NCBI GenBank assembly: GCA_944381205.1
Contig: CALWKG010000003.1
Coordinates: 27,573-91,572 of the forward strand
Length of the DNA: 64,000 bases
Direction: 5' to 3'
Source of the DNA: an uncultured Clostridia bacterium
Lineage (GTDB): Bacteria > Bacillota > Clostridia > Christensenellales > UBA1242
Under the pieces are notes generated by a model that made no database searches, was not told the origin of the DNA, and saw only the letters and a list, made by a program, of their open reading frames with translations. Of the stretch, positions 22,137-62,726 are shown piece after piece (position 1 is the stretch's first letter; the number at the start of each line of letters is the position of its first letter). Position numbers and translations under genes: made by a program.

Positions 22137-22202
22137 TAACTAAACTTATTGCTTGACTTGATAAAACTAACTGAAAACTCACATAATAAAAGTAGGTGTT
22201 TT

Positions 22203-22268
22203 ATGAAAAAGGTATTTGTGTTTTTATCAATTTTCTTACTCTCATTTTCAGGGGTGTTATTTGCGTGT
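22203..22268 (+). other. lipoprotein signal peptide (SPase II type) of giant gene 1
   Basis: KK n-region, a hydrophobic core, and the lipobox L-F-A-C with Cys at residue 22. Confidence 0.75.
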
Positions 22269-25200: not shown

Positions 25201-28200
25201 CGGGGGAAACGGTAGATGTTAGGGCTATTGTCGAGCCAGACAATGTGCTTGATAGACGTTTGGTCGCCAGAATAGAAAGCGAAGAAGGCGATGTTATTGA
25301 TATTGCTGGTTTGAGTTTTGGAGATAGTTACAACGTAAGCGAGATAAGATTAAATGCGGGTGAAACGTTTAGTTTGGGAACAAAAGAAGGTTCTAGCGGA
25401 ACGTTTGATTTAATTTTGATTGCAAGCGACAGCTATATTAGAGAAGATAATTATACTACTTATAGAATTATACATATTACCATTGAAGACGGGGTAAAGT
25501 ATGCGTATTCTATTTCTAACAGCCAAGAACTTAAAGATATAGAGTTGGCACCAGAGAAAAATTATATGTTGGTATCTGACATAATTTTATCATCACAGTG
25601 GGAGCCTATCAAAAACTTCACCGGGGTTCTCAATGGAAATAATCACACAATAACTGGGCTTCAAATTAGCAAACTACAATCAAATAAGGTTGGGCTGTTT
25701 GAAGAAATTAACAATTATTACAGTGTTGTGAATGAAGAAACGGGAACAACCGCACTTACAAGGTACGGAACGGTTTATGATTTAAAATTAGTTGTATCTT
25801 CTATAAACATAAATAGTGAAAATAGCGAGCAACTACTTGTTGGCGCGCTGGCAGGAGAAAACAAGGGTATTATAATGAATGTTGCCGTTGAATTTGGCGA
25901 CATAAAGGTAAATGCTTTGGGGGATACAAATGTTGGCGGATTGGTTGGGCTTAATAGTGGTGTCATATACAATTTCAGCATTGACGTTCATAGGGATAAC
26001 GAAGATGACGAAACCATAGCAACAAAGTACTTTGGGGTTGACCCAGCGCTTAGTTTGTTTAACCGCTTTGAAACGGGCAATGTGCCTAGCGATGTTAATG
26101 TAGACGATTGCATTGCAGAAAATTACAGTGTTGGCAATATTACCGTTACAAGCAGTGGGCTAGCATACGTTGGTGGCTTGGTGGGAAGGAACAATCACAG
26201 GATTAACGGTTACTATGGAGTGTACAGCAAACAAAAACAAAGCGACGGAACGATTATTGTGACTTCTTATCAAAGCGAAGGCATAGACGTAAGGGTTGAT
26301 ATAAACGTAAACGGCGGTAGTTTGACAAACAAAAACTCGGCAATAGGTGGAATTTCGGGCTATAACGGCGGGATTATATCTAACGTTGCCGTTGAAGGTA
26401 ATATTGGTAATTATAGTTTCGTAGACGGGGTTCTTTTGGGGACAAAAGACAACGTTGGTGGTATTATTGGGGTTAACAATGGTGGTTACCTTTTGAACGC
26501 GACTACAAGTGTAAAGGTTCGCGGAGAAGAAAATGTTGGTGGCGCGGTAGGGCTATCTTTGGGGAGTTCTTCAAACAAGGGCAAAATCAATAATGTTTAT
26601 GTCGAAAGTTACAGGCAATTTAACCAAGCGGACAACACTTTAATAGTTGGGCAAAACAACGTTGGCGGTATTATTGGTAATGCAAGCAACACGGATATAG
26701 AAGATAGTTATTCCTATGGCTATGCAGATAAGTTTGAAGATATGTATGTCTTGTATGGCGACATATACGTTTATGGGCAAGACGCGTTTGCCGGTGGTAT
26801 AACTGGTAAAAATAGTGCAGTTAGTGCGACTACTGTATTTTCTACTTTTAACATTATTGCGGGTCAATCATCTAATGTAAGGGGGTTATTTGGGTCAGGA
26901 GATGTGTACGTATCTAATGCCTTTTATGTTGGGGTGTTTGACATAATCGAAAGTTTAAGTTCGATTAACGACATTTTGGGTGTGGTACAGATGGCTAGTG
27001 ACAATGTCCCATTCTACTACGTGCTTAAATATGCGCAAGAAGATACCCTTATGCAAGACCTAACAACTCAAAGCGGTTTTGACTGTTTTGTGGCGGTAAA
27101 GTACTTTGACGACGGGGTACAAGAAGATAATCCTAACATTGTATTTGACTGCTTTGTTTTGGGTGACGAAGACGAAGGGTATTCCTTAGTTGAAATTTTA
27201 AAAAGGACAGAACTGCTTCGTGATTTGCCGGTAGAAATTGACGTTACTGGCGCGGGGACTAATGCAACGCAAGAAGAAGACGAATACATACTTGAATTTA
27301 GCACTAACGCAAACAGAAACGTGTTTTATAATTATTCCTATATGGATTTAAACAATAACAAGCAAAATGTGCTTATTATTAACTATTCTGCTGGGCTTTC
27401 TAACTTTGAATTAAGCGAATTGTTTACGGTTGCGACTAAGCCAGAAGGGATAAACAGGGTTAATCTTTTGGTAGAAAAGGTCGAACAGAACAACAACGTA
27501 CTTACTATTTATAGAAACGGGACTGTAACGATTAATTCCCTAGGGGAGATTGATTTAGAGTTTAGTCTTAGGGAAAATAGTTCGGTAAAGTCTAGGGTTC
27601 ACGTAATTGTTATCCCTAACTTTGACAAGTTGTTGTTATCCACTAGTTTTACCTACACTCCATCTCTATTTGACAACACGCAGGACAATCCTTTATACGT
27701 TGTAAAGGACAGGGCTGTAAACTTTAACTATTTGCTTGTAGAAGGTCAAGAAAATAGCGAAATTGGTTATACTAACAACTACACCATTGAATACGACGTT
27801 TTGTTTAGCGATACAGTAAACGGAGAATATTCAACAAGCGAAGAAATCGAAGGTTACTACTCTTTGACAAATGGAGAGATGGTTATCTCGCAAGTGGGGT
27901 ACTATCGGGTGGCTGTATCCTTGGTGTTTAGTGACAACAGCGGGACAAAGTACAGGATAAAAGATTCTTCTTGGGTGTTTTATTTGCAGGCGGGGGTGAG
28001 TGCTTATGATATTTCGACCAATGCCGACCAAATTGTTATCGAAGGGGACTCGTCAGAAGATATTCTTGTAACCCTAATTGCAAGCGAGCAGGAAGAAATT
28101 CCTAATTTAAGTATGAGATTAAAAACACCTACTGGCGCAGAGTTTAACTTAATAAGGACAGTAGTAGATGAGATGACGGGCGAATGTCTGTATGACGACG

Positions 28201-31200
28201 AAGCATCTCCGTTTAACATATCTTTAATTCCACACTCGCAAGAGCAGGGCGGGTTCCACTACGCAGTAAGTATATCATTAAAAGACGAATATAAAGATAC
28301 TTCTGTGGTGGAAACTTACAATCTTATGATTTTTGACGAAGCGGGGGCTTTAATTAACGACTATGCCGATTTGAATATTGTAATTAGCCCAGCGAGTTTA
28401 AATTCTATTAGTTTGGCTCACTATACCTACGAATCTCAAATGGGGAGCAGTTCTGACGGGCAAAATTTGCCAACAGAGTTTTATTCTTATTCACTGCTTC
28501 AAAAGGACAGCATTGTGCCTGTGTACGGCGGTATGCTGACTATTGACCTTGTACCTTTCTATGCCAACATTAAGTCTATTACAATTTCTTCTTCGCTAGG
28601 TACTGCTGGCGATGGGGTGGAATTTGTACAGATGGTTAAGGTAAAGGATTCGTTAGACGCAAACAAGTTCTATTATGTTTATGGACCTACTACAAAAGTC
28701 AATGCAGATGGAAGTCTTTCTCTTAACCTTGTGTCGTCAATTTCTAATGCGGAAGTTATTGTTACAAACGGCAACGGGGTTTTAAATGTAGACGGGGAGA
28801 TTAAGTATGCCTTTGACGAAGAAGCAAACTATCCTAATGTAGGCAGGTTATATGTAAGGACTATCGCGCCTAGTTCGATAAGCGAACTAGATAACTTTGA
28901 CATAACTGTTAAGGTGGAATACAACTGGCTAAACGAAGACGGTGTGTTAACTACTAGGACAGAAACTAGGACAAAGAGATTGGATATTGTTTCCACACCG
29001 GGTATTAGTTTAACGACTAGTAATAATGGAAACGAAAGAGATATCATAGCCTATACCGGTACTAATTTGGAAAATGCAACCCAAGCGGACTATGTGGACG
29101 TATTTGCTAATGTTGAAAAAGACTACGAATACGACGTATCCTTTACGATAATAAGTAACGGGCAAGATATGGGCGAAAGCACGGACTATGCAGTACTGAC
29201 TCCACAAGGGGATAAGTATGTTTTAACTCTTGGGCCTAAGGCTCAGGTGGGGGATAAGATAAGGCTTAGCCTAGACGTAGAAGTCAATTATGGCAACGAA
29301 ACGGTTGTACAGCACTACATTAAGGAAATAGTTGTAGTAGACGCGGTGATTAACAGTGTTATCATTGAAGGAATGGACGAAAATGCCGATGTTAAAATGA
29401 CTAGGGCTTCTGCTAGACCTTTAAGGATTGAAATTGACGGCTACGGCACAAACGAAGCCTTAAATACAATAGCCCAAAATGTTTCAAGGGCGGTGGTATC
29501 TCCACAGGGAACACCTTATTATTGGTTTGGCGAAATTGGCAACACGGGCAATTATGTCAATATAAACTCGTCTGATTTGCAGTCATATTTGCCTTTTATT
29601 GTCAATCAATTACCTATTGATAACGAAAATATTCAGGAATACATTGTAAATAGTTCGATGCTAGGGTTTGTTTCCGGAAACGAGCAATCGTTTACAATGG
29701 CTTATGACACTATCTATCTTGACGGGGCGACAAGTTATGATTCGGTTTCGCTTTGTGTAAGTTTTTCGTACGTATATAACGAAGGTAGAGTTCTTTTAGT
29801 TCCAAACAACATTAACACTAGTTATAAACAAGAGATGTACTTTACCGTATCCATTGTACAGGGCGAAGAAGAAGACTTAACCGAAATTAACGACGAAGAA
29901 GATTTGGATTTGCTAGAAAGCGACGACGGGACGGGCAATTATATTTTAATGAATGACCTTACCCTAGATGTTTATCGTCCAATAGTTGCTAACTGTGCTT
30001 CATTTGACGGAAATAACAAGGTTATTACTATTAATAGTTTTTGGTACGAAGCGGGTAGCCCTGACTTTGCGTCTTCGTTAAATTTGGGGCTATTTAGTAC
30101 TATTAGTGGTGATACTATCATAAAAAATCTTATTGTTGCTTTGCCTAACAACAAGACGTCTAGTATGGGGCTAACAAATTATTCTTCGCTTAACTTTGGG
30201 GTAATAGCGGGGCAAAACAAAGGTATTATTACTAACTGTGATGTCATAACAACATCGGTATCTACAACTCCTAACTACACCTTAAACTTTGATACAACAG
30301 GTGGCAGAAATATCAACATAGGGCTGTTTGTTGGTATTAATGATGGGATAATTACAAATTCCAGAGTTGGTAGAGATGAAGTAGAAGTTTTGCGCTCTGA
30401 GTCGAGCGAGTCGGTTATTGTAAGGCGAGTTTTACTAGACGACGTGGCTTCTCGCACTATTGTAAATGTAACGGGGCCTGCAAACGTAGGTGGCTTTGTG
30501 GCACTTAACTCGGGGACAATATCTTCTAGTTATGCAAAAAATCTTCAAATAGAAGTATTTGACGGCAGAAATCAAAGTTCTACCAATATTAGAACCGCTG
30601 GCTTTGCCGTTACAAATAGCGGGTACATTAACGGGTCATTTGCAAGCGGATATGAAGAAGAAGATTATGCCGGAACACAGGGACTTAGAAACGCAAATAG
30701 AAAACTTGGCGGTGGGTTGTATTCTAATGGCCCAGTAAGCGGATTTGTGTTTAATAACCAAAACTACATTCAGGATTGTTACTCTAACATAAACCTTAGC
30801 GGAAATTACGAAACATCGGCAAAGACAAACGGTATTATTTCAAGGCTTAATGGCGAAAATTTGGAAAGTGTTAGTGCTAGTGGTTTTGTTTATAATATGA
30901 GCGACAATGCCTATGTCTACACGTCATATTCGTTAAGCAAAATAGGGGTAAATCCTAATACTCACAGTGCGTTTGAAGGCACTCTTGATGCTCTTAATGT
31001 AATTGGGGAAACTGTTTCTCAAAGGGGAACTATTGAAAATTGCTATTTCTTGCGTGAGTCAAACGAAAACTTTACCATTGTGGAAGAACGCGCAATGGAG
31101 TTGTCCGACAGTGTTGTAATATCAAGCACTGACGAAGATGTCCAATCGGGAGTAAATCAGTTTACAAATAGGGATAGTTTTAACGGCTTTGCTTTTGACT

Positions 31201-34200
31201 ATGACATAGACGATTTCTCGACATATACAGGGGCTGGCACTGGTGGAGTGTGGGCGATTACTCTTGGGGCGGAAAATAGCGGTTATCCGGAATTAATTAG
31301 TGCAAACACAATAGCATTGTCTACCCGTGTTGGCAAAACGACCGAAAACGAAAACGGTGGCACTACTACTAGGTATTACTATGTAGCAGACTACGAACTT
31401 GGCTCTCAAAATAACCCATATTTAATTGCTAGTGCCGAACAATACAACAACATTTTTAGGGCATACAATTTGGGAACTCCAACGGGAGATATTACTGCAA
31501 AATTTACGGGCAATGTTAGGTTAATAAATTATATAGATTTTGACGGGATTAGCCCATTATCCACGTCGGTAGAATACACGTCAAAACTAGGCGAAAGGGC
31601 GGTATTTGATGGTAACTATTTGGCTATGTACGATGTATCGCTAACCGATAGCAGTGCAGGTAGTCATTCCTTTGGTTTGTTTAGAGATATTTACGAAGTG
31701 GGTGTAAAAAATATTACCCTTGGGGTGTCTAGGATTAATGCCGGTAACAGTACTAGTGTCGGTGCTTTGGCAGGGGTTATAGTTAATAGTGATATTTCAA
31801 ATATTTCGCTTGTTTCAAGTTCTTCCAACAACTCTGGCATACTTGGCAACAATTACGTTGGCGGGCTTGCAGGCATAATAACCGCGGGTTCGACGGGCGA
31901 AATTTATTACATAGCAAACATAAAGTCCAATCTAACCGTTATGGGCGGTAGGGATAGTGGCAGTTCGTCCACATCTTCTATAAAGTCGTCCTTTGACGTT
32001 TGGTCTAAGATAGAGCCTACAAGTGCGTCGGGCACAGGCGGTAGAGATTTAAGGCTACATAATCTTGACAAAAACGTCTTCTATGCCGGCGGTATTGCAG
32101 GTGTAATAGATTTAAGGCAACAAACAAGCGAAGGTGGCACGGCAATACTATCCACCGAAAACGCGAAAAATCTTTTAGTTGGTGAATTTGCAAAGGGAGT
32201 AGATTATATCCCAGAAACCAATTACAGTGTTGGGGTAGGTGTATTGTCTGACTATGTAGGCGGTTTGTTTGGGTTTATAGGCGAGCAGACTTATCTTGCA
32301 AAATCACAATACATTGCAAGCAACGCAAGTTCTATATCTGGCAAGCAAGTTGCTGGTGGTATTGCTGGGGTAAACTTTGGGTTTATTGCAAAAACTTATG
32401 TTTCCTACAACAAGGAGATTATGGAAGAAGAAGACAAGTACCTTGTATATTATGCTCTTGGGGTAGATTATACTAGAAGCAGTGAAGTAACAGATAGGTT
32501 ATTCTCTGCCGACGAAGAAGAATATGCTCCAAAATACATCGGTGGTATAGCGGGTATTAATGCGGGCGCGGGGACAAGTGGCTCGGGTACTATTGCCGAT
32601 AGTTACAACAGGGTAGATGTTAAAAACAGTGGTTCGGTAGGTGTAGGTGGTATAGTAGGTGCTAGTTACATAGGCGAGATTAGAAACGTCTACACAACCG
32701 CATCTGTTATAGCCAATCTTGATACAAAAAATCCACAAGATGTTTACATAGGCGGGATAATTGGTAAGATTTTTGATGATGCTAGCGAAGGGTATTTCAG
32801 TGATTCAATTTCCGGCGAAAAGACTTTGACATTGAGTAACATAGTGGCTTTAAATGCCTATGACGAAGATGACTTTGAGTTATTGTTTAACTACAATCAG
32901 GTAAAACCGGGTCGCCTTGGTGGTTTGTATGGCAAGTACGAAAATCAAACCGAACAAAAAATGGGCATTGTAAGGATTGAACCAAATTCAAATATATATG
33001 TTCCAACATACATTTTAAAGAACTATAATAACGAATATTTGGCAAGCATAAGTGCTTATGACGATTTTGTTATTGGGCCAAAGACAAACGACGATGGCGA
33101 TTATGTCGCGACTTATGTTGACGCTAATGCCGACGGTGTGGCTGACAGCGAAGAAGTGACGTATATCAGGCTTTGGGGTTCTGAAACAGAAACAGAAGGA
33201 AACATTTATTATGACGAATTCTTGGCAGAGTATTTTAGTGGCAATGACAACTACAAAATAGACCCGCAAGATTATAGAATTCTATTTGGGGGCTCTAACA
33301 TTGCCATTGAAGCAAATCTTTCCGGCGACATAAGTCAAGACGAGTATAACTTGCTAAGAGATACGTATTTTAGCAGTGTAAACTGGCCTAGGACAACCTG
33401 GCAATATGAAGACGCAGACTTGTTGCCACTACTCAGTTATGGTTATGACTCGTCTGTGGTTAGAATTTACACCGCGGAACAATTTATACAGGCGGTTTCT
33501 AGCAAAAACAATGCCGAAATGACTTATCTAGTTATGAACGACATTGATTTTAGCGGGATAAAAGACTTGTCGCCTATTACTACAACGTTTAGCGGTAGGC
33601 TTACCGGTAATGCGGTGACCTATACGGAAGGTGGCAGGGAATATTCTAGGTATCCTATACTATTTAACATTAACATTAACGCAACTGACGTAGGGGCTTC
33701 AAGTTATGCTTTGTTTGAAACCGTTAGTGGCGGGTCTATATCCAACCTTAACTTTATAATTTCTGACTACAACGTACAATTTGCGTCAGAAGTTATGTCA
33801 AGTGCGGTAGCAGGTATTTTGATTGCTGATGCCGAAAACGTGACGATAAATAACGTTAATATTTATAACAGCCTTATTGATAATGTTTCAAAGTATGCTT
33901 CAAATAGGACATATTCCACAAGTTTAAGCGACGTAGACTTTAACGTTACTCAGGGCTTAGCATACAACGATGCAAATATTGTGGATAGTATTAGTTCGGT
34001 GTCGTACTTAAAACTTGCAGAAGTGGTAGGTCTAACCGAATATTCTGGCACTACATATTTGTTTACACTAAATCTAGACGGGCAAAAGAATTTCTTTGCC
34101 GTTAAATCCACTATTACAAATGGGATAGAAACTCCTACTACACTTAGTTATACCATTGAAATTAAGCAAGATGGCAAAATTAACACAAATGCTTCTACCT

Positions 34201-45620: not shown

Positions 45621-45688
45621 GTATTTATTAGACAAAAAATTTAACAAGTATTGTGCAAAATTTTACATTAAACAGGTTTTATAGGATT

Positions 45689-45923: not shown

Positions 45924-45974
45924 GAATAAATTATATACAAAATTTTATAGGAGAAAAAAAAGGATAGGGACAAT

Positions 45975-46043
45975 ATGAAAAGACTATTTAGTGCACTGTT
46001 TGTGTTTTTAATAATGGGCTTTACATTTGTATTAGTTGGTTGT
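45975..46043 (+). other. lipoprotein signal peptide (SPase II type) of giant gene 2
   Basis: KR n-region, a hydrophobic core, and the lipobox L-V-G-C with Cys at residue 23. Confidence 0.75.
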
Positions 46044-55000: not shown

Positions 55001-58000
55001 CTGCTTTGACAAATCCAGCATTGGCGAACTGCACGCGGTGGAGCAGACAGAAGGGGTTATGGGCTCCAATCTCATTCGCACCAACTACTATGCTTTAAAG
55101 CAAAGCGGTGACTACCTTGATAGCGACATAATTTATTCTTCACTAAGGGATAACAACGCAAATCAAATCACCTACACCTTTAACCCTAAGGGCGAGTTTT
55201 TGGGGCTTAGCATTATTTGCAGTATTGTGGTAGACGAAAACGGCAAGGAAACTTACGTTTACGAAAGCGCCGAATACGGTGACGGAAAAATCTTGGATAT
55301 TAGGACTAACAGCGGTGACGTCTACTTTGACTCTGACGAAAATTTCAGGGCAAACGACACCATTGTGATTGAAAGGAACGAGCAAAACAACGAGATTTTG
55401 CGTATCACGTACAGGACTTTGCAGAGCGCGTCGTACTACTATTCTAGCAGTGTTTCGGGCATAAGCGACGTCTTAGGCACAAGGACTAACCCAAAGATTA
55501 TCTATAACGCAGAGTCGTTTAGATATTGGCTAACCGAAACCACCCTTAACAAAACCACCAACACCTTTTATAGGATTGTTAGCGATATTAATTTAGATAG
55601 CGAATATATCACGACGTCCAATTCCACTTTTAGCGGGGTTTTGCAGGGTAACTATATGTCAATAGAAAACTTGTCCTTGTCTTACTTTAATAATAGCGTC
55701 GAAGCCGGGCAAAACAGCACGTCCTTTGGGCTGTTCTCGTCCATTGCGACTAAAAAGGAGTCCACAAACGACACGGTCATTTCCAACCTTACCATTAACG
55801 TCGACCAAGTTTTGTCTAACGCGCATATGTTTGTCGGGGCTTTGGCGGGAATGATTAACGCGGACAGCACGTTGAGTTCTAAAAAGGTATTTTTAACAAA
55901 TATTTCCATTTTAACCCCAGAAGGAAGCAAATCTTTGGTAATGGGCAAAAACGCGGTAGGCGGGCTAGCGGGGTACGCGACGGGCAACGTGATTATTAAG
56001 GACATAACCGCCAGTGTTAGTGTCAATGCGTCATACGAAGCGCCTGATTCGGTCATTAACAGCACTCTTTACGCGGGGGCAAACACTAGCAACGTAAGTA
56101 GAATTTCCTACGCGGGCGGGGTAGTTGGGATATTTGACGTCAAAAAGGTCATTGACACCGCAACTCTTAGGAACTACAACGCAAGCAACATAATAGTAAA
56201 TGGCGAAAACACGTACGTTGGCAACATAGTAGGTAGCGCGTTTGGACTAGTTGGCGAAAACTGCATAATAAACTACGTCAACGCGAGTTTAACGCACTCC
56301 GAGATTTCGTTTATCAAAGCCACCAGTTACGCGGGCGGTTTGGTGGGCGAAAACCGCGGGACGATAATAAGTTCTTCGGCAAGCCAGTACGACGAGCAGG
56401 CAAACGAGCAGAACCACGGCATTGGCGACTCGCCTTATGACCAGTACGACCTGTTTTTCAGCGGGCTTGGGGGAGAAGTGCTTGCCATCGGCGGTTTGGT
56501 TGGGCTAAACAACGGCGGACTTGTGACAAATAGCATTTCAAAGGTAAATGTTACCAACAAAAAGGCGACCATCGCGGGCGGTGCCGTGGGTAGAATGTTA
56601 GAAGGCGCGCTAGAAAACGTAATTGCCAGCGGTGCGGTTTTAGGAAACAGGATTATGGGCGGTCTTGTCGGTAGCCTAAACGATATCGACTTAATGGCGA
56701 TAGAAGGCGAATACAACGCAGACGGTTTAATACCTTTTGATAGGCAAAAGTACATCGACTTTTACGGTAGTTTTGTCGCGGGCGAAGACACAAAGGTGAT
56801 AATCTCTAACTGCGTGGCGGGCAACAACTGGCTAGTTAAAGACTACTCCTATTACTTGTCTAGGATTAACAACGGTAACGCGCTCTTGGCTGGGTTTATC
56901 GGGGTAATATCCTACTACAATACGGTAAGTGCCATAAACGATTTGATTTTTGAAACAATCAGTTTTACAAAACCTAGTTTTTATGCCAATACCTTGTTTA
57001 CCACAGTCAATAGTCAAAACCCGGCTAGGATTTTGCAAAGCACCTATCTTTCCTACGAGTTGGACTCTGTGGAAGTAAACACCAACAGTCCAAATGTCCT
57101 AGTGGACGGTAACGGCGAGCAGGTGGTTTACCCGTATTCAACTAACGAATTCTACTACGAGTCGGCACAAAGCAAGGTAAACTACACGGTAATTAGCATT
57201 AACAACGAGTTATCCGGGGCAGGTTCGCCAAATGACGTCTATGCCAAAGAGTTTTACCAAATACGTCAGACCACCCCGTCAGAACTCATTAACTCGGAGT
57301 TTTTCTACACCCTAATTGACTATGACGAAGACGGTAATTGGGGTACTCCGTATAACCAACGCAGTTTCGACTGGTACCAAGATAGATTTGGCTACATTTA
57401 TTACCTAAACGAAAACAATTCCTACACCTTGGTAAATAGCGAGCAGGAGTTTATTGCTCTCGAAAAACTAAGCGACGGCAGTTTTAGGGAGTTTTACTAC
57501 ATACAAAGCCCGATTTTGACCGAGTTTAGTTATACGGAAGAATACCTAAGCACCGACGATAGCATATTTGTCTACGGCAACAACTTGTCTAGCAGTTCTA
57601 GGGTAAACGCGTATACGTTTGAGTCCATAGACGACTTAAAGGAGCAAACATACATCTCAATCAACGGCATACAAATACCTATTAATCTTCTCGATAGCGA
57701 AAACACCATAAGCGAAGAAATTTTCCTAGACGAACAGCACGAGCAGTTTAGCGAAGGCACCTACGAGTACAAAAACTTTAACCTTCCGCTAATAAACGGT
57801 GGGGAAATCACGTCGGTTAAAATTTACGTCAAATCCTACGTTCAGGCGGATAACATCAGGGCTTATGTCGAAAGGGTTCAGGTGGTTTACGAGTACAAAA
57901 ACGTCGGGTATAACACCCTTGATAACGAAAACGTCTTTGTGTCGCTACAATCCACTATTAACAATGCCCAAACTTTCTACGACCTAAAAATCAGTTCCAA

Positions 58001-61000
58001 AAAGGTGATATTTAGTTCGTTTAAAAACGGTTATTGGCAAATGGACGACAATTTCTTGTCCTACTCCCTAGACGACGTCAGCAGGTATCCGGTTAATTTG
58101 GAGTTTGCCGAAAAGTACGTGTGGAGCGATTTTAGGTCAACCAACGTTTCTACCACCATCTATACGGCAGAAGATTTAGCCGGCTTTGCCTATATGGTAA
58201 ACAGCGGGTATGATAGTTACGAAGGCAAGACCGTAACCCTTTCTAGCGACATTGATTTAAGCGGAAAGTATTGGCTTCCAATAGGTAGCGAAAAGTATCC
58301 ATTTAAAGGCACTTTTGACGGGCAGGGGTACAGCATTAAGTACGTGTCGGTAAACGAAAATTCGCTTAAAGATAGCAACAATTTGCCAAAGTACGCGGGG
58401 CTGTTTGGCTACACGGACGGGGCGACAATTTTCGACATAAATATCCTAGGCGGTGAAGTTTGTGGCGAGTACGCAGGCGGGCTGGTTGCCAAGGCAAACA
58501 ACACCACTATCTATAACGTTCAGTCTAGAAACAATGCCGTGGGGCAAGTTTCCGCGGGCGGAATAGTGGGCGAAATGCTTGGCGGTAGCATATACAACAC
58601 CCAAAATTATGCCAGGGTGGAAAGTAATTCCAACTCGACAAATTTAGTCTACGTGGGCGGAATAGTCGGCAATGCCACAGACACCGCTATGGGTGGAACA
58701 AGCGGGGATAGGGTCTTAACCAACACCAACTACGGTGAGATTTATGCTACAAATAACTCCACTAACTACATTTCAAACACTTTAATAGAACTATTCGTAG
58801 GCGGGATAGCAGGGCAGGTTAATAACGTGACCTTAATTGATAATTCCACCAACGAAGGCTCAATCACCGTCACCACTAATTCGGATAAAACTCACATAGG
58901 CGGGGTGGTCGGAAGTGTGGTTATCAACGATAAAACCCTAGTATTATCCAAAATTCAAAACAATGCAGATATTTTGGTAAATTATGTAAATAACTTTTCC
59001 GATGCCGACATTGGCGAAAGTGCAAACTACGACGATTACGCAGTAATGGACGTGGGCGGAGTGCTTGGGGTTAGCAACATAAACGGGACTTTTGTCAATA
59101 ACGAAGGCAACTTGACGGTCAACACCACCAGTTCTAACGACGCAAAAATTTCCGTCGGTGGCATAGTGGGTAGGATAGACGTGGACGGTGCTGGCGGGGT
59201 AGACCTACGCAATTCGTACAACATTGGGGATATAGAGTCGTTTTCTACCAACTCGTCTGTGTTTGGCATAGGCGGACTGGTGGGGACAAGCGATTTGAGT
59301 TACTACGAAAACAACAATTCGGACGAAGCAAACGAAAAGACCAAAGACAAGATAAGCATTTACGACAGTTACAACGCGGGCGACGTCTTGTCTAGCAACA
59401 ACTGTGCCACCTTTATTGGCGGAATACTCGGGTATGCCTACGGTAGCAACGTGGTGTCAAACAGGGTGTTAATTCAAAGGACATTAAACGTGGGCGGGGT
59501 TAGCATTTACAACATTATGCGTACCCAAAACGCACTCGGCGCTATCGTGGGGATAGACGAACACATTTATACCACTAACCCTATGGCAAACACCACCGTT
59601 CAGGATATAGAAGATTACATTCCGCAGGGACTATATAATTTCTACCTAAGGGGAAGTGCGTACGCGTCGGGCGAAATGTACACCGCATTTAGCCAGTACG
59701 AGCCGTCTACGTCCTATTACACCGCGGTAGACGATATTCCAACCTTTGCGGTTGCCAAAATTTCGGATAGTTTAAAAGACGAAACTAACTATCAAATAGA
59801 AGTTGTAATTTCCGACATTACCTACACCTACGATACTTGGGACTTTGATAATACTTGGGAGCAGGAGTACGACACTTGGTACCCAACCCTAAAAAACAAC
59901 CTTGTTACTGCTTTTTGGGTAGAAAAACAGCAGGAAGTTCAAAGCACAGGGGTGAGTTATTCGGTAAATTCGGCAGAAGAACTAGCCTATGTCGGCAACT
60001 TGATTAATACCGGAAAGATTGAAAGCGAAGGTATCGTCATTAACCTAAACAGTTTTATTGACCTGTCTAACAGATTTTGGACCCCTATCGGCAACGACGA
60101 CTTTCCGTTTAAAGGTACCTTTAACGGCAATAGTTACGAGATTAAAAATTTGACGGTAGAAGGCTCTGTTTTAAGCGACAACACCTACGGCGGTCTGTTC
60201 GGGGTGGTAGAAGGCGCTACAATCACCAACCTTGGCTTTAATGCCCCTGTGGTTCAAAATGTCACAAATGCGGGCAGTGTCAGTGCTTTGGCAAAAAATT
60301 CCAATATCTCGTATATCTACGTCGAAAACGGCGACAGCGAGTCCAGTGTGATAGAAGGCATATCCCTTGCAGGCGGGATTGTGGGCGAGTTGGTCGACAG
60401 CAACGACAAATCATCTAGTGACAGGCGCGGGCTGTACTTTGCCTACAACAACACCCGAGTAAGCGCCGACACAGAAATCACCGGGCTATCGTCAGTGGGT
60501 GGCTTGGTGGGCAGTTTAAGCAGTTCCATTATCGGCAACGCGTACAATGGCGAAAGCGGTATCGTGGTCGTCAGGGACGCGAGTGTCAGCACGGGTAGTA
60601 TCGTGGTGGGCGAAGCGGATATTTCTAGCCAACTCATTAACGTGTTTAACTTGTCACCGCTTATGCAAACCATAGACCTAAGCGACATCGAGATTACCGA
60701 AAAGCAACTATACACCATAACCCTTAGCGAAGACAACCGCGTACTTGTAGTTAATACAGGTTACGAGCCAACCTTTGATAACCTTGTTAGCGACGACGAC
60801 TTGGGGCAAACGGTGGACGTTTTTACCAAGGAATACAGCCTAAATAGTGTAGAACTAATTGACTACCCAACCATAAGGGGTCTTGGCAGAGAGTGGAAGA
60901 ATACCGAAAGTGACAATTTGGTTTCCTACACCATATCTAGCGACTTTGGCGAAAAGGGTAGTATAGTAGATTACATTCAGTCAATCACGGTGGATAGTTC

Positions 61001-62726
61001 TTTAAGTGACGAAATCAATGCTTTAAGGATAAACCCAACACTGCTTAGTTTCGCAAACGACAACAACATAAAGGTTAATAAGGTCTACCTAATTTCTTCC
61101 GCGCAGGAGTTGGTTTTCCTAGCCAACAACGTAAACAACGGCTCACTGCTAACCACTAATACCGAGTTCATTTTGACCAGCGACATCGACCTAACAGGCA
61201 GTTATTGGACTCCTATTGGGCTGTCTTCGGTGTATCCGTTTATGGGTGTGTTTAACTTTAACGGTCACGTGATTAGCGGGCTTACCATAGACAATTCTTC
61301 CTACACCTACGCGGGACTGTTTGGCTATACCAAAAACGCATATATCATTAACGGCTACCTTCAAAACGCGTTTATCAAAATCAACAACCAAGGCATTAAT
61401 TCCGAGGTCTATGCGGGCGCTCTTGTGGGGCTAGGGGATAACACCACCATCAAAAACATAAGTGTCAGCGCGACCATTTCGGCTTATTCCAATTTCGCCA
61501 GTTACATTGGCGGGGTGGCGGGCTATCTAACCGGTAGCAGTTACAGTGTGCAAAACGTCAAATCTTTCAAAGGCGCTAAGTCGGTAGATTTGGGAAATTT
61601 TGTAAATAACGTCGTCGAACTCGAAGACAATACCGAGGTTAAGTCCGACAACTTGTATTTGGCGGGATTTAGCGACAAGGGCAGTGTCTACGCGGGCGGA
61701 ATTGCGGGCTACGTCGTGGGACCTGACAGGCAGGAAGACGATTTTAGTGTCATAACGTACGCACAAAGCGGTATCAACATTACCGCGGTTTCTCGCTCGG
61801 CTTCGGCAAACGTCTACGCGGGCGGAATTGCGGGCTACGGGGCAGAGTTTTTAACCGTTGATACGTCGTCTAGCACTAGCATAATAAAGACCTATTCGGC
61901 AAAATTCGACGTCGCGGGCGGGATAGTCGGCTACAACAACAATGGTGTGGTTTCCAACTCGCAGTTTGACGGGTACTTAGAAACAAGGCAGTCGTCGGGC
62001 AGAGTTTTCGACGCACCGCAAAACATTAGGTCGTACGTGGGCGGAATAGTCGGCAGTGCTCGTGGCGGGGTGATTTCCAACTGCATTAACAGTGGCTCCA
62101 CCCTTGCCAGCAACGTCAGCGAAGACGTTTCAATAGGCGCCATAATAGGCTATGCCATCGATAAGGAGTACACCGGCGACTCGCTCAGCATTTACTATAC
62201 AGGCAATAACGGCTTTGAGGACGCGATAGGTATTTACGTCTACGAAGTTCTCACCCAGCCTAGCGACATTCAGGATTTAATAAACGGAGTGTACACTAAC
62301 GACACAAGGCTAATTTCGGCAGAAGGCAGTCCATTTAGGGATAACCCTAGTTGGAAAGTCAACGGTTCCGAAGCAATCGTCCTATCAAATAAGGTGTTTT
62401 TAATGGGCGCGAATATGGCTTCGTTTAGGGTCAGTTACGGCGGGGAAACAAAGCCACTGCTCGGGCAGGAAGGTGTGGATAGCCAGCCGGGGCTTTTGGT
62501 AGACTTAGAAAACTTGGGCGACGTCGATATCTATAACATAGCCACGTCGTCTAGCGAGTCAAAAATAGCGGTAAGCCTATTAGTGCAGGGAGTAAACGGG
62601 CTAGAATACTACTATATCGAACAAACCCTAAGTGACTCCGCCGACGAAACCTTCAAACTCTCCACCGTCATAGGCTCCACCCTAAAATCCCAACTCGTCA
62701 CTTGCTTCATCTCTTATCTAGAATAG
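45975..62726 (+). CDS. giant surface lipoprotein (5,583 aa), paralogue of the upstream gene, with Ig-like domains and GLUG-motif beta-helix modules
   Basis: A 16.7-kb frame with no stop. It opens 'MKRLFSALFVFLIMGFTFVLVGC' (lipobox LVGC) with RBS 'ggga' 4 nt upstream. Big_2-like 'ITAQALKKGSAKIIVRVESL' and 'SVLTISQNGDIRVVGTGKAIITISS'. Canonical GLUG module 'IYTAEDLAGFAYMVNSGYDSYEGKTVTLSSDIDLSGKYWLPIGSEKYPFKGTFDGQGYSI...YAGGLVA...SAGGIVGEMLGGSIYN'. Confidence 0.9.
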   Translation: MKRLFSALFVFLIMGFTFVLVGCNDRYGGLSMSLSFSFSPNGENVEVLDDGTYRVITGGGVFDAKRDGSYVIYIGEENARIPLDIVYHNAPDDFNYDVNFSYNSEAFTCDKSDKNFITNGIQVTVVASSIGKGNLTVINSEANIKSSIYIEVVKIANEISFKNSSLGISVEERSIINFANELTGIPQGQNFEISFGTGSVENFSPMTYEELMTKGFNYNINTKSLSLARTTNIELDSFLVKATYTSPLGEELVAYATIDVLPALSGFEIYLGSDIDSVLPENRVDLNSALEFVYNNVDGRLNYKDFIFKINSNGEKVTFGAIYEEGLYPFKVGENILTPQPLFNKSPYVYVNQNGQVVDDYSQATTTYGFFRLEAIKSTEDPKYTNSIYTINFTCDYADYEITNYPLVLNVDSTIFSLVETFEINGDSVDSTFFEKGELAGSIDSIIDKFYQNKLYLNTSGDISGESFEISVASPSNINEQNSKFYVEFYDDNYNLIADPSYYLTISYEYAGNSYNYVSSDNQLFSKDTTFYIKPKRETTSANDQFFMIIRAEKPTDMPAVAGLHFVVVEGISEIESYDYTNYTYSVNEETGEYILDEFGNKIIVNSGSEGVLFTESTSSSKTMVGVETINVDLNVKQDIFISLNADYEEYSNVSIQSSDPSILIIKEINGGDITAQALKKGSAKIIVRVESLSMVYEIDINVFSPITSFYTTLNTYDNGVGEYEIDDDKISTKSATVEAKTTFSVLISTRPLEEKVYDLITRLYVKVAENDYQLVGEYLGAGDGVIQDGYITYNAINHSFTFYSDDAEGREYIVVYEIHNLDGAILRKQITLKCFVPIRDIMIETTTTQIYEPDSIYYGDKVLSAQDLSLRQDDPSIFGLRVNVNHVSERIPTFTFEDYGVIEIEFNGNIYNRYSVKNGVLVEEYISTLSPISALSNIMTNGYYWFRLNEDRKLSNDSLLINAYVREFSKNNFEDNKKIEIIPVSAVKSIVSNDGTDINFRQGIDNSFSANLQVFDGDIYNSELLYIPVVVLEDKFAVVQNGGLFTISINKTYENMFRLDFGLNHKFGGYGAVVIIPQDKINTLSDYTTWNSYTYTQVTVNEDSFVQGLYYIMQGEEYFLASEYFETQTYYIKGIDLSQVLSIWQGALVLNISVSDGEGIPYHISTYEELVEIGSSAESASKNYVLTRDIEIPSSYRWQAIQNYYVANVTSQEEFLLDTYYIKDGEDYVISEEYDEDATYYGLGFNGNLTGKYEIVDYRTGQTITEYYSITNVRYEGGYNSSLMGIFTKLGVDGVISDLKVEYSYFQPSTTTAGYYGGIVGENRGNIQNASVRFSDYRLTITKPNDNEFKVVVGGIAGVNYGTIENSRLLDESSLQGNLSVVLLSEDIDALVGGFAGENYGVISGSYDTDKQIEYTFNDIGFDSVLGIRVDGKSVNSRIGGVAGLNSGKIKNIALQGKIVASGLNYVGGIVGYNDVSSNREYSIERSYFAGTVSGNDFVGGVVGNSSNGSYYNISAENYATSTNSSRTFVTGNRNVGGLIGYASNVQVQFSFVVSYFGCDSIESKFVESSSSYDVIGQENVGGLAGVFVNSQVSASATYVNVRGNDAVSNFSAVTNSSSIEDAFAIGCIYAVNGVSHNPLSIAQNSYSIITDVRQGVTYTNGYEDGVINITIEDPWKASEVADNPPYLVFEGEALLSTSQIVITASVKDNDAPYTNYIKATDTALLLFYGYDEFNRYSSSLMNQVNTIGLKDLIDLKVELETHKTTRFDVRSSNLSVLTISQNGDIRVVGTGKAIITISSKLNSSVFKQIEVVVINGITGMEVYSNPSMTQNADDLDLTLVKSQSLGLYSEIEYTRQIDNQELQLLSSEQVGVRFKVYDDESLQELLQSLVDDEEGVYYELNDILRIAGNTWAQDPNGFYYVDVDYNSQISIVPQIAFDLPITISYTPYIKTVFNSGEIVTLLDMIGERFFRVTAQNGATDIVLENNILSTVDINQLEYFTFTVTVYTDYEEEDIDSNINTITDQNFGFNPGNKVINKDSNGKVVSVSRSYTVWYKDKVNTIDEEKVYNLNFWAVTNASENSLSLTIVVHGQDGVSDISARIFSDVKEDFPQKPSDSNTIYNARTGLLAFEVYPYFANYSKLRVSYSGNINYAITLTQLYYNADNTGDKFSIYTNSGTTFDENGNLIVLKTSGQDSASISTNGIYSYSRMYFFGILVPSGVPDRTSYVITIDVLDSKNNVIYSEQVPFSTLARSDLNLSFDAKFLGEDGLYYLPANTRQELVVNANTEYEAISFEISSPDYQLSEIEKEIFEPTLSDGGYYVWVMDYKNNLFSTDLIGKTIEIEAVLDDGETADPASISFVISLFTVTGVNVNNLNQGYMTLENSVTTPLTVNVEAVYDESLVNSSQNWYTTWYNNFGEDQTNSLYLNILNAGYSIEANFVDYLSQLQDSIAKANYNSSSTSTTKTSGVWLYVDSQGTLSALRSGNMYNNNAFGVENYRDYIAVYGYETDRNSNLILNVRLTYSHYDMSTSTRVKDSSGVPSVRDYNYEFALYQSNFTFEQEFTLTFVDRIGLNNPTPISSASEFLDLAEETEGDFRLVNDIELTNYTPINLNVDSFDGNNYTIYITSFSNSATNFALFDTIDSESMAYNATVYYTSRVDYSTELETIIPRAYPIEIELNQTGSYNFGGLAITNKGIITNCTVTGGVTFDTNLSLSVTNGGLVTQNSTSGFITNSKVTHFILTCYGTTGGFVAQNMGKVVASYFDNSSITNLSTANTGGFVYQNSGEIYECYAQGARSTTDNDIRNTGAGISSDGGNVGGFAYQNTSLISDCYSNILISTSNMMAGFVYVDSESSVISKCYSISCKRSGDNETTAFPFVGPSAEHIIPLRVIVNGTLNNCYYLTTGGSWEESNFYLPDSTNPRLTPANKKAEALETDDFATHDSFINYDLSLVYNTDYYEDRTQFNYIDGYTWVIVEGKPLLVSTLTNTISQQDYQGKQKNYDSEELVCFDKSSIGELHAVEQTEGVMGSNLIRTNYYALKQSGDYLDSDIIYSSLRDNNANQITYTFNPKGEFLGLSIICSIVVDENGKETYVYESAEYGDGKILDIRTNSGDVYFDSDENFRANDTIVIERNEQNNEILRITYRTLQSASYYYSSSVSGISDVLGTRTNPKIIYNAESFRYWLTETTLNKTTNTFYRIVSDINLDSEYITTSNSTFSGVLQGNYMSIENLSLSYFNNSVEAGQNSTSFGLFSSIATKKESTNDTVISNLTINVDQVLSNAHMFVGALAGMINADSTLSSKKVFLTNISILTPEGSKSLVMGKNAVGGLAGYATGNVIIKDITASVSVNASYEAPDSVINSTLYAGANTSNVSRISYAGGVVGIFDVKKVIDTATLRNYNASNIIVNGENTYVGNIVGSAFGLVGENCIINYVNASLTHSEISFIKATSYAGGLVGENRGTIISSSASQYDEQANEQNHGIGDSPYDQYDLFFSGLGGEVLAIGGLVGLNNGGLVTNSISKVNVTNKKATIAGGAVGRMLEGALENVIASGAVLGNRIMGGLVGSLNDIDLMAIEGEYNADGLIPFDRQKYIDFYGSFVAGEDTKVIISNCVAGNNWLVKDYSYYLSRINNGNALLAGFIGVISYYNTVSAINDLIFETISFTKPSFYANTLFTTVNSQNPARILQSTYLSYELDSVEVNTNSPNVLVDGNGEQVVYPYSTNEFYYESAQSKVNYTVISINNELSGAGSPNDVYAKEFYQIRQTTPSELINSEFFYTLIDYDEDGNWGTPYNQRSFDWYQDRFGYIYYLNENNSYTLVNSEQEFIALEKLSDGSFREFYYIQSPILTEFSYTEEYLSTDDSIFVYGNNLSSSSRVNAYTFESIDDLKEQTYISINGIQIPINLLDSENTISEEIFLDEQHEQFSEGTYEYKNFNLPLINGGEITSVKIYVKSYVQADNIRAYVERVQVVYEYKNVGYNTLDNENVFVSLQSTINNAQTFYDLKISSKKVIFSSFKNGYWQMDDNFLSYSLDDVSRYPVNLEFAEKYVWSDFRSTNVSTTIYTAEDLAGFAYMVNSGYDSYEGKTVTLSSDIDLSGKYWLPIGSEKYPFKGTFDGQGYSIKYVSVNENSLKDSNNLPKYAGLFGYTDGATIFDINILGGEVCGEYAGGLVAKANNTTIYNVQSRNNAVGQVSAGGIVGEMLGGSIYNTQNYARVESNSNSTNLVYVGGIVGNATDTAMGGTSGDRVLTNTNYGEIYATNNSTNYISNTLIELFVGGIAGQVNNVTLIDNSTNEGSITVTTNSDKTHIGGVVGSVVINDKTLVLSKIQNNADILVNYVNNFSDADIGESANYDDYAVMDVGGVLGVSNINGTFVNNEGNLTVNTTSSNDAKISVGGIVGRIDVDGAGGVDLRNSYNIGDIESFSTNSSVFGIGGLVGTSDLSYYENNNSDEANEKTKDKISIYDSYNAGDVLSSNNCATFIGGILGYAYGSNVVSNRVLIQRTLNVGGVSIYNIMRTQNALGAIVGIDEHIYTTNPMANTTVQDIEDYIPQGLYNFYLRGSAYASGEMYTAFSQYEPSTSYYTAVDDIPTFAVAKISDSLKDETNYQIEVVISDITYTYDTWDFDNTWEQEYDTWYPTLKNNLVTAFWVEKQQEVQSTGVSYSVNSAEELAYVGNLINTGKIESEGIVINLNSFIDLSNRFWTPIGNDDFPFKGTFNGNSYEIKNLTVEGSVLSDNTYGGLFGVVEGATITNLGFNAPVVQNVTNAGSVSALAKNSNISYIYVENGDSESSVIEGISLAGGIVGELVDSNDKSSSDRRGLYFAYNNTRVSADTEITGLSSVGGLVGSLSSSIIGNAYNGESGIVVVRDASVSTGSIVVGEADISSQLINVFNLSPLMQTIDLSDIEITEKQLYTITLSEDNRVLVVNTGYEPTFDNLVSDDDLGQTVDVFTKEYSLNSVELIDYPTIRGLGREWKNTESDNLVSYTISSDFGEKGSIVDYIQSITVDSSLSDEINALRINPTLLSFANDNNIKVNKVYLISSAQELVFLANNVNNGSLLTTNTEFILTSDIDLTGSYWTPIGLSSVYPFMGVFNFNGHVISGLTIDNSSYTYAGLFGYTKNAYIINGYLQNAFIKINNQGINSEVYAGALVGLGDNTTIKNISVSATISAYSNFASYIGGVAGYLTGSSYSVQNVKSFKGAKSVDLGNFVNNVVELEDNTEVKSDNLYLAGFSDKGSVYAGGIAGYVVGPDRQEDDFSVITYAQSGINITAVSRSASANVYAGGIAGYGAEFLTVDTSSSTSIIKTYSAKFDVAGGIVGYNNNGVVSNSQFDGYLETRQSSGRVFDAPQNIRSYVGGIVGSARGGVISNCINSGSTLASNVSEDVSIGAIIGYAIDKEYTGDSLSIYYTGNNGFEDAIGIYVYEVLTQPSDIQDLINGVYTNDTRLISAEGSPFRDNPSWKVNGSEAIVLSNKVFLMGANMASFRVSYGGETKPLLGQEGVDSQPGLLVDLENLGDVDIYNIATSSSESKIAVSLLVQGVNGLEYYYIEQTLSDSADETFKLSTVIGSTLKSQLVTCFISYLE

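What the first reader, a model, noticed from the sequence alone, without database searches (positions are those of the whole stretch)
25501..61289. Poly-modular design: at least six beta-helix cap motifs in each giant protein
Reading the translations, one N-cap pattern recurs: '[I/Y]xSAEEL…(N)Y.L..DIDL…W.PI…F.G.FDGNG[HY].I..L'. In gene 1 I see it at about 25501-25670, 29883-30041, 31413-31643, 33459-33611, 35778-35924 and 36933-37151. In gene 2 I see it at about 49455-49590, 53700-53874, 55488-55679, 58158-58351, 59958-60158 and 61080-61289. Each cap is followed by a run of GLUG-type coils. The three C-terminal modules of gene 2 are close to the canonical cap seen in annotated GLUG proteins, while the gene 1 caps are much more degenerate. 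This suggests the proteins grew by serial module duplication and are chains of separate beta-helical units rather than one homogeneous repeat.
Basis: partly seen in the sequence, partly recalled or inferred. Interest (0 to 1): 0.55.

Follow-up and report, generated by a model that had tools for sequence, protein, structure and literature searches.

The report
Giant surface proteins of beta-helix modules
Two neighbouring genes of an uncultured gut Clostridia (Christensenellales-like) bacterium encode 7,805- and 5,583-residue lipid-anchored surface proteins that are chains of divergent copies of a known building block, the beta-helix domain of streptococcal IgA1 proteases; this is a solid domain description of an unannotated protein family, not a new kind of biology.

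Summary
The observation largely holds. Against a cap profile built from 108 unrelated homologues, 11 of the 12 claimed caps score above what local shuffles give (0.005 hits per shuffle). Profile-profile scans find exactly five caps in gene 1 and six in gene 2. The twelfth (gene 1, nt 35778) aligns in register but is not significant, although AlphaFold2 starts a beta-rich domain there.

The cap is the C-terminal ~100 positions of Pfam Peptidase_M26_N, followed by GLUG coils. A profile of canonical modules hits PDB 3N6Z (E 3e-28) and IgA1 proteases (E 1e-14). Both AlphaFold2 models match these structures best.

AlphaFold2 and the coil map fit separate units joined by low-confidence linkers and coil-free spacers. 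But the N-terminus, modules 1-3 and probably module 4 are positional homologues between the two genes, and modules 1-3 also across about 40 related giant lipoproteins. An already modular ancestor was therefore duplicated whole. Only gene 2's last three modules look like an internal duplication. Gene 1 aa 5133-7402 is one long coil run behind a single cap.

The tandem pair is conserved in at least 11 gut MAG species. I found no catalytic domain. The likely role, inferred only, is a surface fibre or adhesin.

The parts
22203..45620 (+). Gene 1 (g1): 7,805-aa giant lipoprotein. Signal peptide plus lipobox ...VLFAC. The ORF is open from 22149, but the ATG at 22203 matches all orthologs.
45975..62726 (+). 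Gene 2 (g2): 5,583-aa giant lipoprotein (lipobox LVGC), a collinear paralog of g1.
25482..27008 (+). g1 module 1: cap (ORF aa 1112-1195) plus GLUG coils up to about aa 1620.
   Evidence: (prob 99.1)
29856..31298 (+). g1 module 2: cap (aa 2570-2666), variant coils (GGFVA.N.G.I) and a C-terminal W...GYPEL motif. This is among the most conserved stretches of the family.
   Evidence: (95.6)
31392..32828 (+). g1 module 3: cap (aa 3082-3196) plus coils.
   Evidence: (92)
33438..35408 (+). g1 module 4: cap (aa 3764-3873) plus coils up to about aa 4420.
   Evidence: (95.6)
Support from sequence is weak. AlphaFold2 predicts a beta-rich unit here.
36918..37307 (+). g1 module 5 cap (aa 4924-5053).
   Evidence: (94.4)
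37545..44354 (+). g1 long coil run, ORF aa 5133-7402. It holds at least 40 canonical aGGIVG...GG.I.N coils, a few inserts (for example a helical insert at aa 5457-5531) and no further cap.
49434..50834 (+). g2 module 1: cap (aa 1154-1305, apparently split by an insertion, by eye about 45 aa) plus 8 coils.
53700..54944 (+). g2 module 2: cap (aa 2576-2656) plus variant coils.
55470..56924 (+). g2 module 3: cap (aa 3166-3278) plus coils.
58128..59594 (+). g2 module 4: canonical cap (aa 4052-4162) plus 8 or more coils.
59931..60584 (+). g2 module 5: canonical cap (aa 4653-4760) plus a short coil run.
61059..62174 (+). g2 module 6: canonical cap (aa 5029-5134) plus coils.

Best explanation
g1 and g2 are tandem, anciently duplicated genes for giant lipoproteins anchored to the membrane by an N-terminal lipid. 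The host is an uncultured gut Clostridia (Christensenellales-like) bacterium.

Each protein has an N-terminal region of about 1,100 aa that holds at least one Ig-like (Big_2) domain. This is followed by a string of right-handed parallel beta-helix modules of the type seen in the N-terminal domain of M26 IgA1 proteases. A module has three parts:
- An N-cap made of strand, helix, strand and the DIDL...W.PIG...F.G.FDGNGH.I motif. This equals the C-terminal part of Pfam Peptidase_M26_N.
- A stack of GLUG coils.
- In some modules a C-terminal W...GYP.L tail.

Modules are separated by coil-free linkers or spacers. The core N-term / M1 / spacer / M2 / M3 (/ M4) architecture predates the g1/g2 duplication. 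After it, g2 carries three near-canonical modules and g1 carries one cap followed by a coil run of about 2,270 aa.

Shown here: the architecture, the homology, the predicted fold and the conservation. Inferred only: the proteins are non-enzymatic, extended and semi-rigid surface fibres or binding scaffolds (adhesin-like) that project from the cell. The beta-helix faces would serve as binding surfaces, as the IgA1-protease beta-helix does when it binds the Fab of its substrate.
For: Architecture and statistics:
- Cap-profile hits at 11 of 12 sites against 0.005 per shuffle.
- Family profile-profile peaks at five g1 sites and six g2 sites.
- Reverse test of positional profiles against canonical caps.
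- 85 coil hits against 0.065 in shuffles, confined to the modules.

Identity of the module:
- In homologues the cap maps to positions 145-248 of 250 of PF05342 and is followed by PF07581 GLUG.
- A module profile hits PDB 3N6Z (E 2.9e-28) and M26 IgA1 proteases 7UVL/6XJA (E 1e-14).

Fold:
- AlphaFold2 models are beta-rich, with high pLDDT in the modules.
- The best Foldseek matches are 3N6Z and the IgA1 proteases, then generic right-handed beta-helices.

Evolution:
- Reciprocal best hits M1-M1, M2-M2 and M3-M3.
- Collinearity from the N-terminus to M4.
- g1 orthologs are collinear over all 7,800 aa.
- Caps sit at conserved positions in about 40 family representatives.
- The g1-then-g2 tandem is found in 11 MAG species.

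Surface location:
- Lipoprotein signal peptides in g1, g2 and nearly all relatives.
- No other hydrophobic segment.

No enzyme signature:
- Pfam finds only Big_2 and a sub-threshold GLUG hit.
- No HExxH motif.

Literature:
- The IgA1-protease beta-helix binds the substrate Fab and gates the active site (PMC7695701).
- Peptidase_M26_N-like domains were flagged in predicted fibrillar adhesins, with ambiguous function (PMC9210967).
Against: - Function is inferred only. There is no ligand, expression or localisation data.
- Pectate-lyase-like beta-helices are often catalytic, and many homologues of the canonical modules sit in enzymes such as heparinase II/III and M26 peptidase. A catalytic or enzyme-scaffold role is therefore not excluded.
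- About 40% of each protein is uncharacterised and could hide an active domain. This covers the N-terminal 1,100 aa, the spacer at aa 1650-2570, g1 aa 4758-4942 and g2 aa 3650-4050. Of these, only g1 aa 4758-4942 was modelled, and it came out at pLDDT below 50.
- AlphaFold2 confidence is moderate (mean pLDDT 72 and 60). I could not inspect coordinates, so 'separate rigid units' rests on pLDDT and secondary-structure patterns and on fold matches.
- Pfam's own GLUG model does not reach its threshold on g1 or g2.
Confidence: 0.65

Rival explanations
1. The modules are catalytic, or the proteins are giant extracellular enzymes or enzyme scaffolds. Beta-helices of this superfamily carry polysaccharide lyase or hydrolase sites. 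Alternatively the modules present substrate to an undetected catalytic domain hidden in the uncharacterised spacers.
For: - Close homologues of the canonical g2 modules occur in proteins with heparinase II/III (PF07940), M26 peptidase, chitobiase-C and dockerin domains.
- Foldseek lists polygalacturonases, PL6 lyases and tailspikes after the IgA1-protease hits.
- PMC9210967 notes a possible catalytic function for this domain class.
- The most conserved stretches (g1 aa 2519-3500 and 4519-5000) could mark active regions.
Against: - There is no Pfam catalytic domain in g1, g2 or the two N-terminal ortholog fragments tested.
- There is no HExxH motif.
- In the solved IgA1 protease the beta-helix is a binding and gating domain, not the catalytic one (PMC7695701).
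- Matches to enzymes are weak generic beta-helix matches (probability 0.2 or less).
Confidence: 0.2
2. Each gene expanded on its own by serial tandem duplication of one module, so modules within a gene are each other's closest relatives.
For: g2 modules 4, 5 and 6 are each other's best hits, at 100, 61 and 65 bits.
Against: - g1 M1/M2/M3 are reciprocal best hits of g2 M1/M2/M3, not of each other.
- Collinearity extends from the N-terminus to M4.
- The same cap positions occur across about 40 family members.
- There are no DNA-level repeats within the genes.
- g1 orthologs are collinear at 25-60% identity.
Confidence: 0.1
3. The recurrence is a chance match of a loose pattern in low-complexity, G/N/S/T-rich giant ORFs, or the ORFs are assembly artefacts.
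For: - Several g1 caps score only 3-7 bits with a single-sequence HMM search.
- Pfam does not see them.
- One claimed cap (aa 4544) is not significant.
Against: - The shuffle control gives 0.005 hits per shuffle.
- Family profile-profile probabilities are 92-99% at exactly the claimed sites and nowhere else.
- The reverse test points the same way.
- Identical full-length proteins occur in at least five independent assemblies.
- Orthologs occur in 18 MAG species.
Confidence: 0.02

Closest known systems
N-terminal beta-helix domain of M26 IgA1 metalloproteases (S. pneumoniae IgA1P, PDB 6XJA/6XJB/7UVL; G. haemolysans 7UVK); Pfam Peptidase_M26_N (PF05342) plus GLUG (PF07581)
   Same: - Same cap motif and GLUG coils.
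- A profile of canonical modules hits these chains at E 1e-13 to 1e-14.
- They are among the best Foldseek matches of both models.
- It is a small right-handed beta-helix that acts as an independently folding binding unit (PMC7695701).
   Different: - There is no M26 catalytic domain (no HExxH), no G5 domain and no LPXTG anchor.
- There are 6 modules per protein instead of one.
- The g1 modules are so diverged that neither Pfam nor a g1-family profile finds the PDB relatives.
- The anchor is an N-terminal lipid.
BACOVA_03286 'putative immunoglobulin A1 protease' of Bacteroides ovatus (PDB 3N6Z)
   Same: It is the best sequence-profile match (E 2.9e-28) and the best structural match (TM 0.50 normalised to the target). 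It is a stand-alone cap plus GLUG beta-helix.
   Different: It is a single 339-363-residue domain of unknown function, not a giant multi-module protein.
Multi-module GLUG proteins of gut Clostridia/Oscillospiraceae (about 1,700-2,600 aa, often with heparinase II/III, dockerin or chitobiase-C domains), e.g. P0004, P0006, P0057, P0061
   Same: They carry 4-7 canonical caps at 280-400 aa spacing. They are the closest relatives of g2 modules 4-6.
   Different: - They are two to four times shorter.
- Their modules are adjacent and near-canonical.
- They usually carry a recognisable enzyme or anchoring domain.
- They lack the N-term / M1 / spacer / M2 / M3 core of the g1/g2 family.
Fibrillar adhesins and long beta-helical surface proteins (predicted fibrillar adhesins of PMC9210967; from my own knowledge, FHA/TpsA proteins and autotransporter passengers such as Ag43 and pertactin)
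   Same: They are very long, repetitive, extracellular, beta-solenoid-rich proteins. Ag43, pertactin and Hbp appear among the weak Foldseek matches.
   Different: - The secretion and anchoring logic differs: a lipoprotein signal here against TPS, type V or sortase.
- There is no identified terminal adhesive domain.
- The repeat family is different.

Membership tests
Peptidase_M26_N / GLUG beta-helix module (Pfam PF05342 + PF07581) | N-cap sequence matching the C-terminal part of PF05342 (..DIDL..W.PIG..F.G.FDGNGH.I..L) | tested here: met
   - In homologues the cap maps to PF05342 positions 145-248.
- A cap profile from those homologues hits 11 sites in g1 and g2.
- Pfam's own PF05342 model gave no hit on g1 or g2 directly.
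Peptidase_M26_N / GLUG beta-helix module (Pfam PF05342 + PF07581) | GLUG motif repeats reaching Pfam's gathering score | tested here: not met
   - PF07581 scores 17.5 bits against a cutoff of 20.5 on the g1 N-terminal half, and gives nothing on g2.
- A coil HMM built from the proteins themselves finds 85 coils against 0.065 in shuffles.
- The module profile reaches the GLUG-containing PDB chains.
- This is therefore a failure of model sensitivity, not an absence of the repeat.
Peptidase_M26_N / GLUG beta-helix module (Pfam PF05342 + PF07581) | Right-handed parallel beta-helix fold like 3N6Z or the IgA1-protease N-terminal domain | tested here: met
   AlphaFold2 models have 3N6Z and 6XJA/6XJB/7UVL as their top Foldseek matches, at probability 0.9-1.0. 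These are predictions only.
M26 IgA1-specific metallopeptidase (enzyme family) | Zinc-metalloprotease catalytic domain with HExxH | tested here: not met
   There is no Peptidase_M26_C or other peptidase hit. There is no HExxH motif anywhere in g1 or g2. They are not IgA1 proteases.
Bacterial lipoprotein | N-terminal signal peptide ending in a lipobox with invariant Cys | tested here: met
   - g1 ...FSGVLFAC and g2 ...FVLVGC.
- The same feature occurs in nearly all family members that have an intact N-terminus.
- I checked this by eye, not with a dedicated predictor.
Fibrillar adhesin (sensu PMC9210967) | Repetitive stalk, a distal adhesive domain and a cell-surface anchor | tested here: inconclusive
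   An anchor (lipid) and stalk-like repeats are present. No distinct adhesive tip domain was identified, and binding cannot be tested here.
g1/g2 giant-lipoprotein family of Christensenellales-like MAGs (defined here) | Lipoprotein signal, ~1,000-aa N-terminal region, M1, ~900-aa spacer, then M2 and M3 at conserved positions | tested here: met
   Collinear orthologs, conserved cap positions in about 40 representatives and g1/g2 collinearity.

The most novel reading that the evidence does not exclude
The g1/g2 family is a previously undescribed class of giant lipid-anchored surface fibres, so far seen only in uncultured gut Clostridia (Christensenellales-like MAGs). Its g1 branch would carry a single capped beta-helix of about 2,270 residues. 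Such a rod would be tens of nm long and among the longest continuous beta-solenoids known. The strongly conserved M2-M3 and X-M5 junction regions would be the functional heads, binding a host or microbial ligand. The proteins could then be major determinants of how these heritable gut commensals interact with mucus, IgA or partner microbes.
Probability: 0.25. Interest if true: 0.55.

Novelty: new variant of a known kind. Interest (0 to 1): 0.35.

Why it matters
The building block, the IgA1-protease-type GLUG beta-helix, is known and very common in gut metagenomes. These two genes and their relatives are nevertheless essentially unannotated. No public source names them, and Pfam sees almost nothing in 13,400 residues.

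This analysis shows three things:
- They are ordered chains of 5-6 diverged modules.
- The architecture is ancient and conserved as a tandem gene pair in at least 11 species-level MAGs.
- One paralog ends in an exceptionally long coil run.

That gives annotators a usable domain map. It also gives experimentalists defined, independently foldable pieces of what are probably the largest surface proteins of an abundant but uncultured gut lineage. Finally, it shows how profile methods built on orthologs recover modules that standard domain libraries miss.

Tried and rejected
- Whole-protein self-BLAST gave no internal hits because BLAST culls HSPs contained in the identity HSP. I redid it in chunks.
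- Pfam on g1, g2 and two orthologs gave nothing useful.
- phmmer of g2 aa 4050-5583 and g1 aa 4900-7400 against PDB sequences gave no hit. Only the module profile worked. The g1-family profile A2 found nothing.
- The search for homologous proteins with g1 aa 4500-5700 gave only one fragment. The giant orthologs were found only by the exhaustive representative search.
- hhalign self-mode on the N-terminal, spacer and C-terminal regions returned nothing, probably because that mode does not work as I used it. The internal structure of those regions remains unknown.
- The first attempt to iterate the coil HMM failed technically and was redone.
- A C-cap profile was too weak to delimit module ends.
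- I looked for hidden caps in g1 aa 5000-7800 and found none at probability >=50%.
- Rfam on the whole window gave no hit.
- Literature searches for GLUG plus beta-helix, and for giant proteins plus Christensenellales, gave no papers.
- The look-up of encoding contigs for the exact g2 protein gave only a short contig. A cluster member gave the downstream context.
Full report
**What is there**

The window is chromosomal DNA of a low-GC Clostridia-type bacterium.
- Upstream genes include gltX, pth, mfd, an M23 peptidase, an acyl carrier protein and a SpoIIID-like regulator.
- In a 383-kb scaffold carrying the same genes, rpoB and rpoC follow downstream.
- Two giant ORFs fill 22149-45620 and 45975-62726.
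- Both begin with lipoprotein signal peptides. For gene 1 (g1) the ATG at 22203 matches all orthologs, giving 7,805 aa.
- Both exact proteins occur in public collections, without any name. Versions of 7,805-7,817 aa and 5,583 aa were recovered in at least five independent assemblies. They are real genes, not assembly artefacts.

**Checking the observation**

All 12 claimed segments carry the motif when read by eye. I tested for chance as follows.
- I seeded an HMM with the three clean caps of gene 2 (g2) and collected 570 cap instances from 120 homologous proteins. Each of those proteins has 4-7 caps spaced 280-400 aa apart.
- I reduced these to 108 non-redundant caps and searched g1 and g2 with the resulting profile.
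- It hits g2 at aa 1154, 2580, 3166, 4052, 4653 and 5029. It hits g1 at ORF aa 1112, 2570, 3082, 3764 and 4924.
- These are 11 of the 12 claimed positions, and no other full-length hit appears.
- In 200 locally shuffled copies of both proteins, hits of >=3 bits spanning >=50 profile positions occur 0.005 times per shuffle.

An exhaustive search of 1.84 billion representative proteins found a family of collinear g1 orthologs of 7,400-8,000 aa.
- A sliding profile-profile comparison of that family alignment against the cap profile gives exactly five peaks. They lie at ORF aa ~1118, ~2578, ~3090, ~3773 and ~4930, with probabilities of 92-99% and E-values from 6e-7 to 1e-18. Nothing else reaches >=50%.
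- The same scan of g2 gives exactly six peaks.
- In the reverse direction, positional profiles of the g1 caps recognise canonical caps of unrelated proteins far above shuffles for M1-M5.

- It aligns in the expected register: YYILTSDLQL against ..L..DIDL, NAQGYSI against FDGqGh.I, and VIGL against GLFG.
- The score is only E 0.0076 and probability 5%. The reverse test is barely enriched.
- AlphaFold2 nevertheless starts a beta-rich unit of pLDDT 70-83 exactly there, and variant coils follow.
- I regard it as a plausible degenerate module that lacks the cap helix. It is not proven.

Coils were tested separately.
- The GG[ILV][VA]G motifs and a coil HMM give 85 hits against 0.065 in shuffles.
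- All hits lie downstream of caps. None lies in the N-terminal ~1,100 aa, in the ~900-aa spacer after module 1, or in the g1 C-terminal tail.
- Module 2 of both genes uses a variant coil, GGF[VA].N.G.I..CY.

**What the module is**

- In homologues, the cap corresponds to positions 145-248 of 250 of Pfam Peptidase_M26_N (PF05342) and is followed by GLUG motifs (PF07581).
- A profile of canonical modules hits PDB 3N6Z, a Bacteroides 'putative IgA1 protease', at E 2.9e-28. It hits the M26 IgA1 proteases of S. pneumoniae and G. haemolysans at about 1e-14.
- AlphaFold2 of g2 aa 4040-5140 (mean pLDDT 72) gives a cap of strand, helix and strand followed by long beta-coil regions at pLDDT 85-95 in two units. 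These are separated by low-confidence linkers, and a third cap follows.
- AlphaFold2 of g1 aa 4400-5599 (mean pLDDT 60) gives the X unit, a poorly predicted but highly conserved 185-aa stretch, the module-5 cap, and coils at pLDDT 80-92 interrupted by a helical insert.
- Both models have 3N6Z and the IgA1 proteases as their best Foldseek matches. Generic right-handed beta-helices follow: tailspikes, polygalacturonases, PL6 lyases and Ag43.
- In the solved IgA1 protease this beta-helix is a small, independently folding domain that binds the Fab of the substrate and gates the active site (PMC7695701).
- g1 and g2 have no peptidase domain, no HExxH motif, no LPxTG motif and no further hydrophobic segment.

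**How the architecture arose**

- Module-by-module comparison gives reciprocal best hits g1M1-g2M1 (E 2e-21), g1M2-g2M2 (2e-26) and g1M3-g2M3 (2e-17). The g2 modules M4/M5/M6 cluster with one another.
- Profile comparison of the g1 family with g2 extends the collinearity to the N-terminus, weakly to the spacer, and to M4.
- g1 positional profiles classify g2 caps 1-3 to their own positions.
- Across about 40 representative family members of 3,157-7,993 aa, almost all with lipoprotein signals, caps recur at ~900-1200, ~2100-2800 and ~2600-3350.
- A scan of GTDB species genomes found 18 loci, all gut MAGs. They are labelled uncultured Christensenella, Christensenellales, Clostridia or Oscillospiraceae, and come from sources that include sheep, goat and Hadza (human) gut samples.
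- In 11 of these loci the ORF immediately after the g1 ortholog is a g2 ortholog.
- Neither gene holds any DNA-level repeat.

The conclusion is that an already poly-modular ancestor was duplicated as a whole gene before these species diverged. Only g2 M4-M6 show an old internal triplication.

After the last g1 cap (aa 4929) come about 2,270 residues (aa 5133-7402) with at least 40 canonical coils.
- There are a few inserts, one coil-poor stretch (aa ~6000-6140), and no detectable internal N-cap or C-cap.
- It is also the least conserved part, at 20-45% identity among orthologs. M2-M3 and aa 4519-5000 are the most conserved, at 40-67%.

**Likely function**

The following points are shown or predicted here:
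- lipid-anchored, extracytoplasmic proteins;
- a beta-helix module chain;
- deep conservation;
- no recognisable enzyme domain.

Inferred: long, semi-rigid surface fibres or binding scaffolds of an adhesin type. Domains like Peptidase_M26_N were independently picked up in predicted fibrillar adhesins, with function called ambiguous (PMC9210967).

The main rival is a catalytic or enzyme-scaffold role. Many homologues of the canonical modules sit in heparinase II/III, M26 or dockerin-bearing proteins. About 40% of each protein remains uncharacterised.

**Novelty**

- The module and multi-module GLUG proteins are known.
- This giant family, its conserved core, the tandem pair and the very long capped coil run are undescribed in the literature I could search. 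They are also unnamed in the sequence sources.
- I rate it a new variant of a known kind. Interest is moderate to low for the finding as stated, which is a domain-architecture description.

Noticed in passing
window 62860-63800 (downstream of g2): A cluster of at least 5 copies, in both orientations, of a 45-60-nt element: CGTCATTCTGAG[CGAAGCGAAG or ATGGGC..GGCTCCCG]AAGAATCCC. It looks like a REP- or MITE-like intergenic repeat. It produces the spurious 'RYGILRFAQNDEE' and 'LLRHSE' small ORFs.
   Followed up: partly
window 45759-45829 and 45870-45940 (g1-g2 intergenic): A 71-nt direct repeat (89% identity) lies just upstream of g2. Each copy carries a TTTACA-18-CAAAAT promoter-like site. No terminator-like hairpin lies between g1 and g2.
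   Followed up: partly
window ~20900-22200: A ~1.3-kb stretch without ORFs and extremely AT-rich lies directly upstream of g1. GC is 21% in the 2-kb bin, against 31-47% elsewhere. It may be a large regulatory or leader region.
   Followed up: no
window 20612-20872 (+) and 19875-20117 (+): Two small genes: an 86-aa protein that looks like SpoIIID (by eye, helix-turn-helix ...VSKSTVH.DL...RHIRGGEATK) and an acyl carrier protein. The SpoIIID-like gene would hint at a spore-forming, or formerly spore-forming, Clostridia lineage.
   Followed up: no
g1 ORF aa 4758-4942 (window ~36420-36974): This is one of the most conserved stretches of the g1 family, with many invariant W/F/Y/G/N residues. Its motifs are YRTFYDYVAY, GIYVWTTTFSGD, DTSWFNYGY and MLYTGNGL. 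AlphaFold2 gives pLDDT below 50 and there are no coils. The function is unexplained.
   Followed up: partly
proteins P0137-P0196 (related loci, not in the window): A wider family of about 40 representative giant lipoproteins (3,157-7,993 aa) shares the N-term / M1 / spacer / M2 / M3 core but has variable C-terminal extensions. All of the 18 genome loci found come from gut MAGs.
   Followed up: partly
window 5666-7922: Two adjacent paralogous CPBP-family intramembrane protease / ABC-permease-like genes, both matching NF041647, lie upstream.
   Followed up: no
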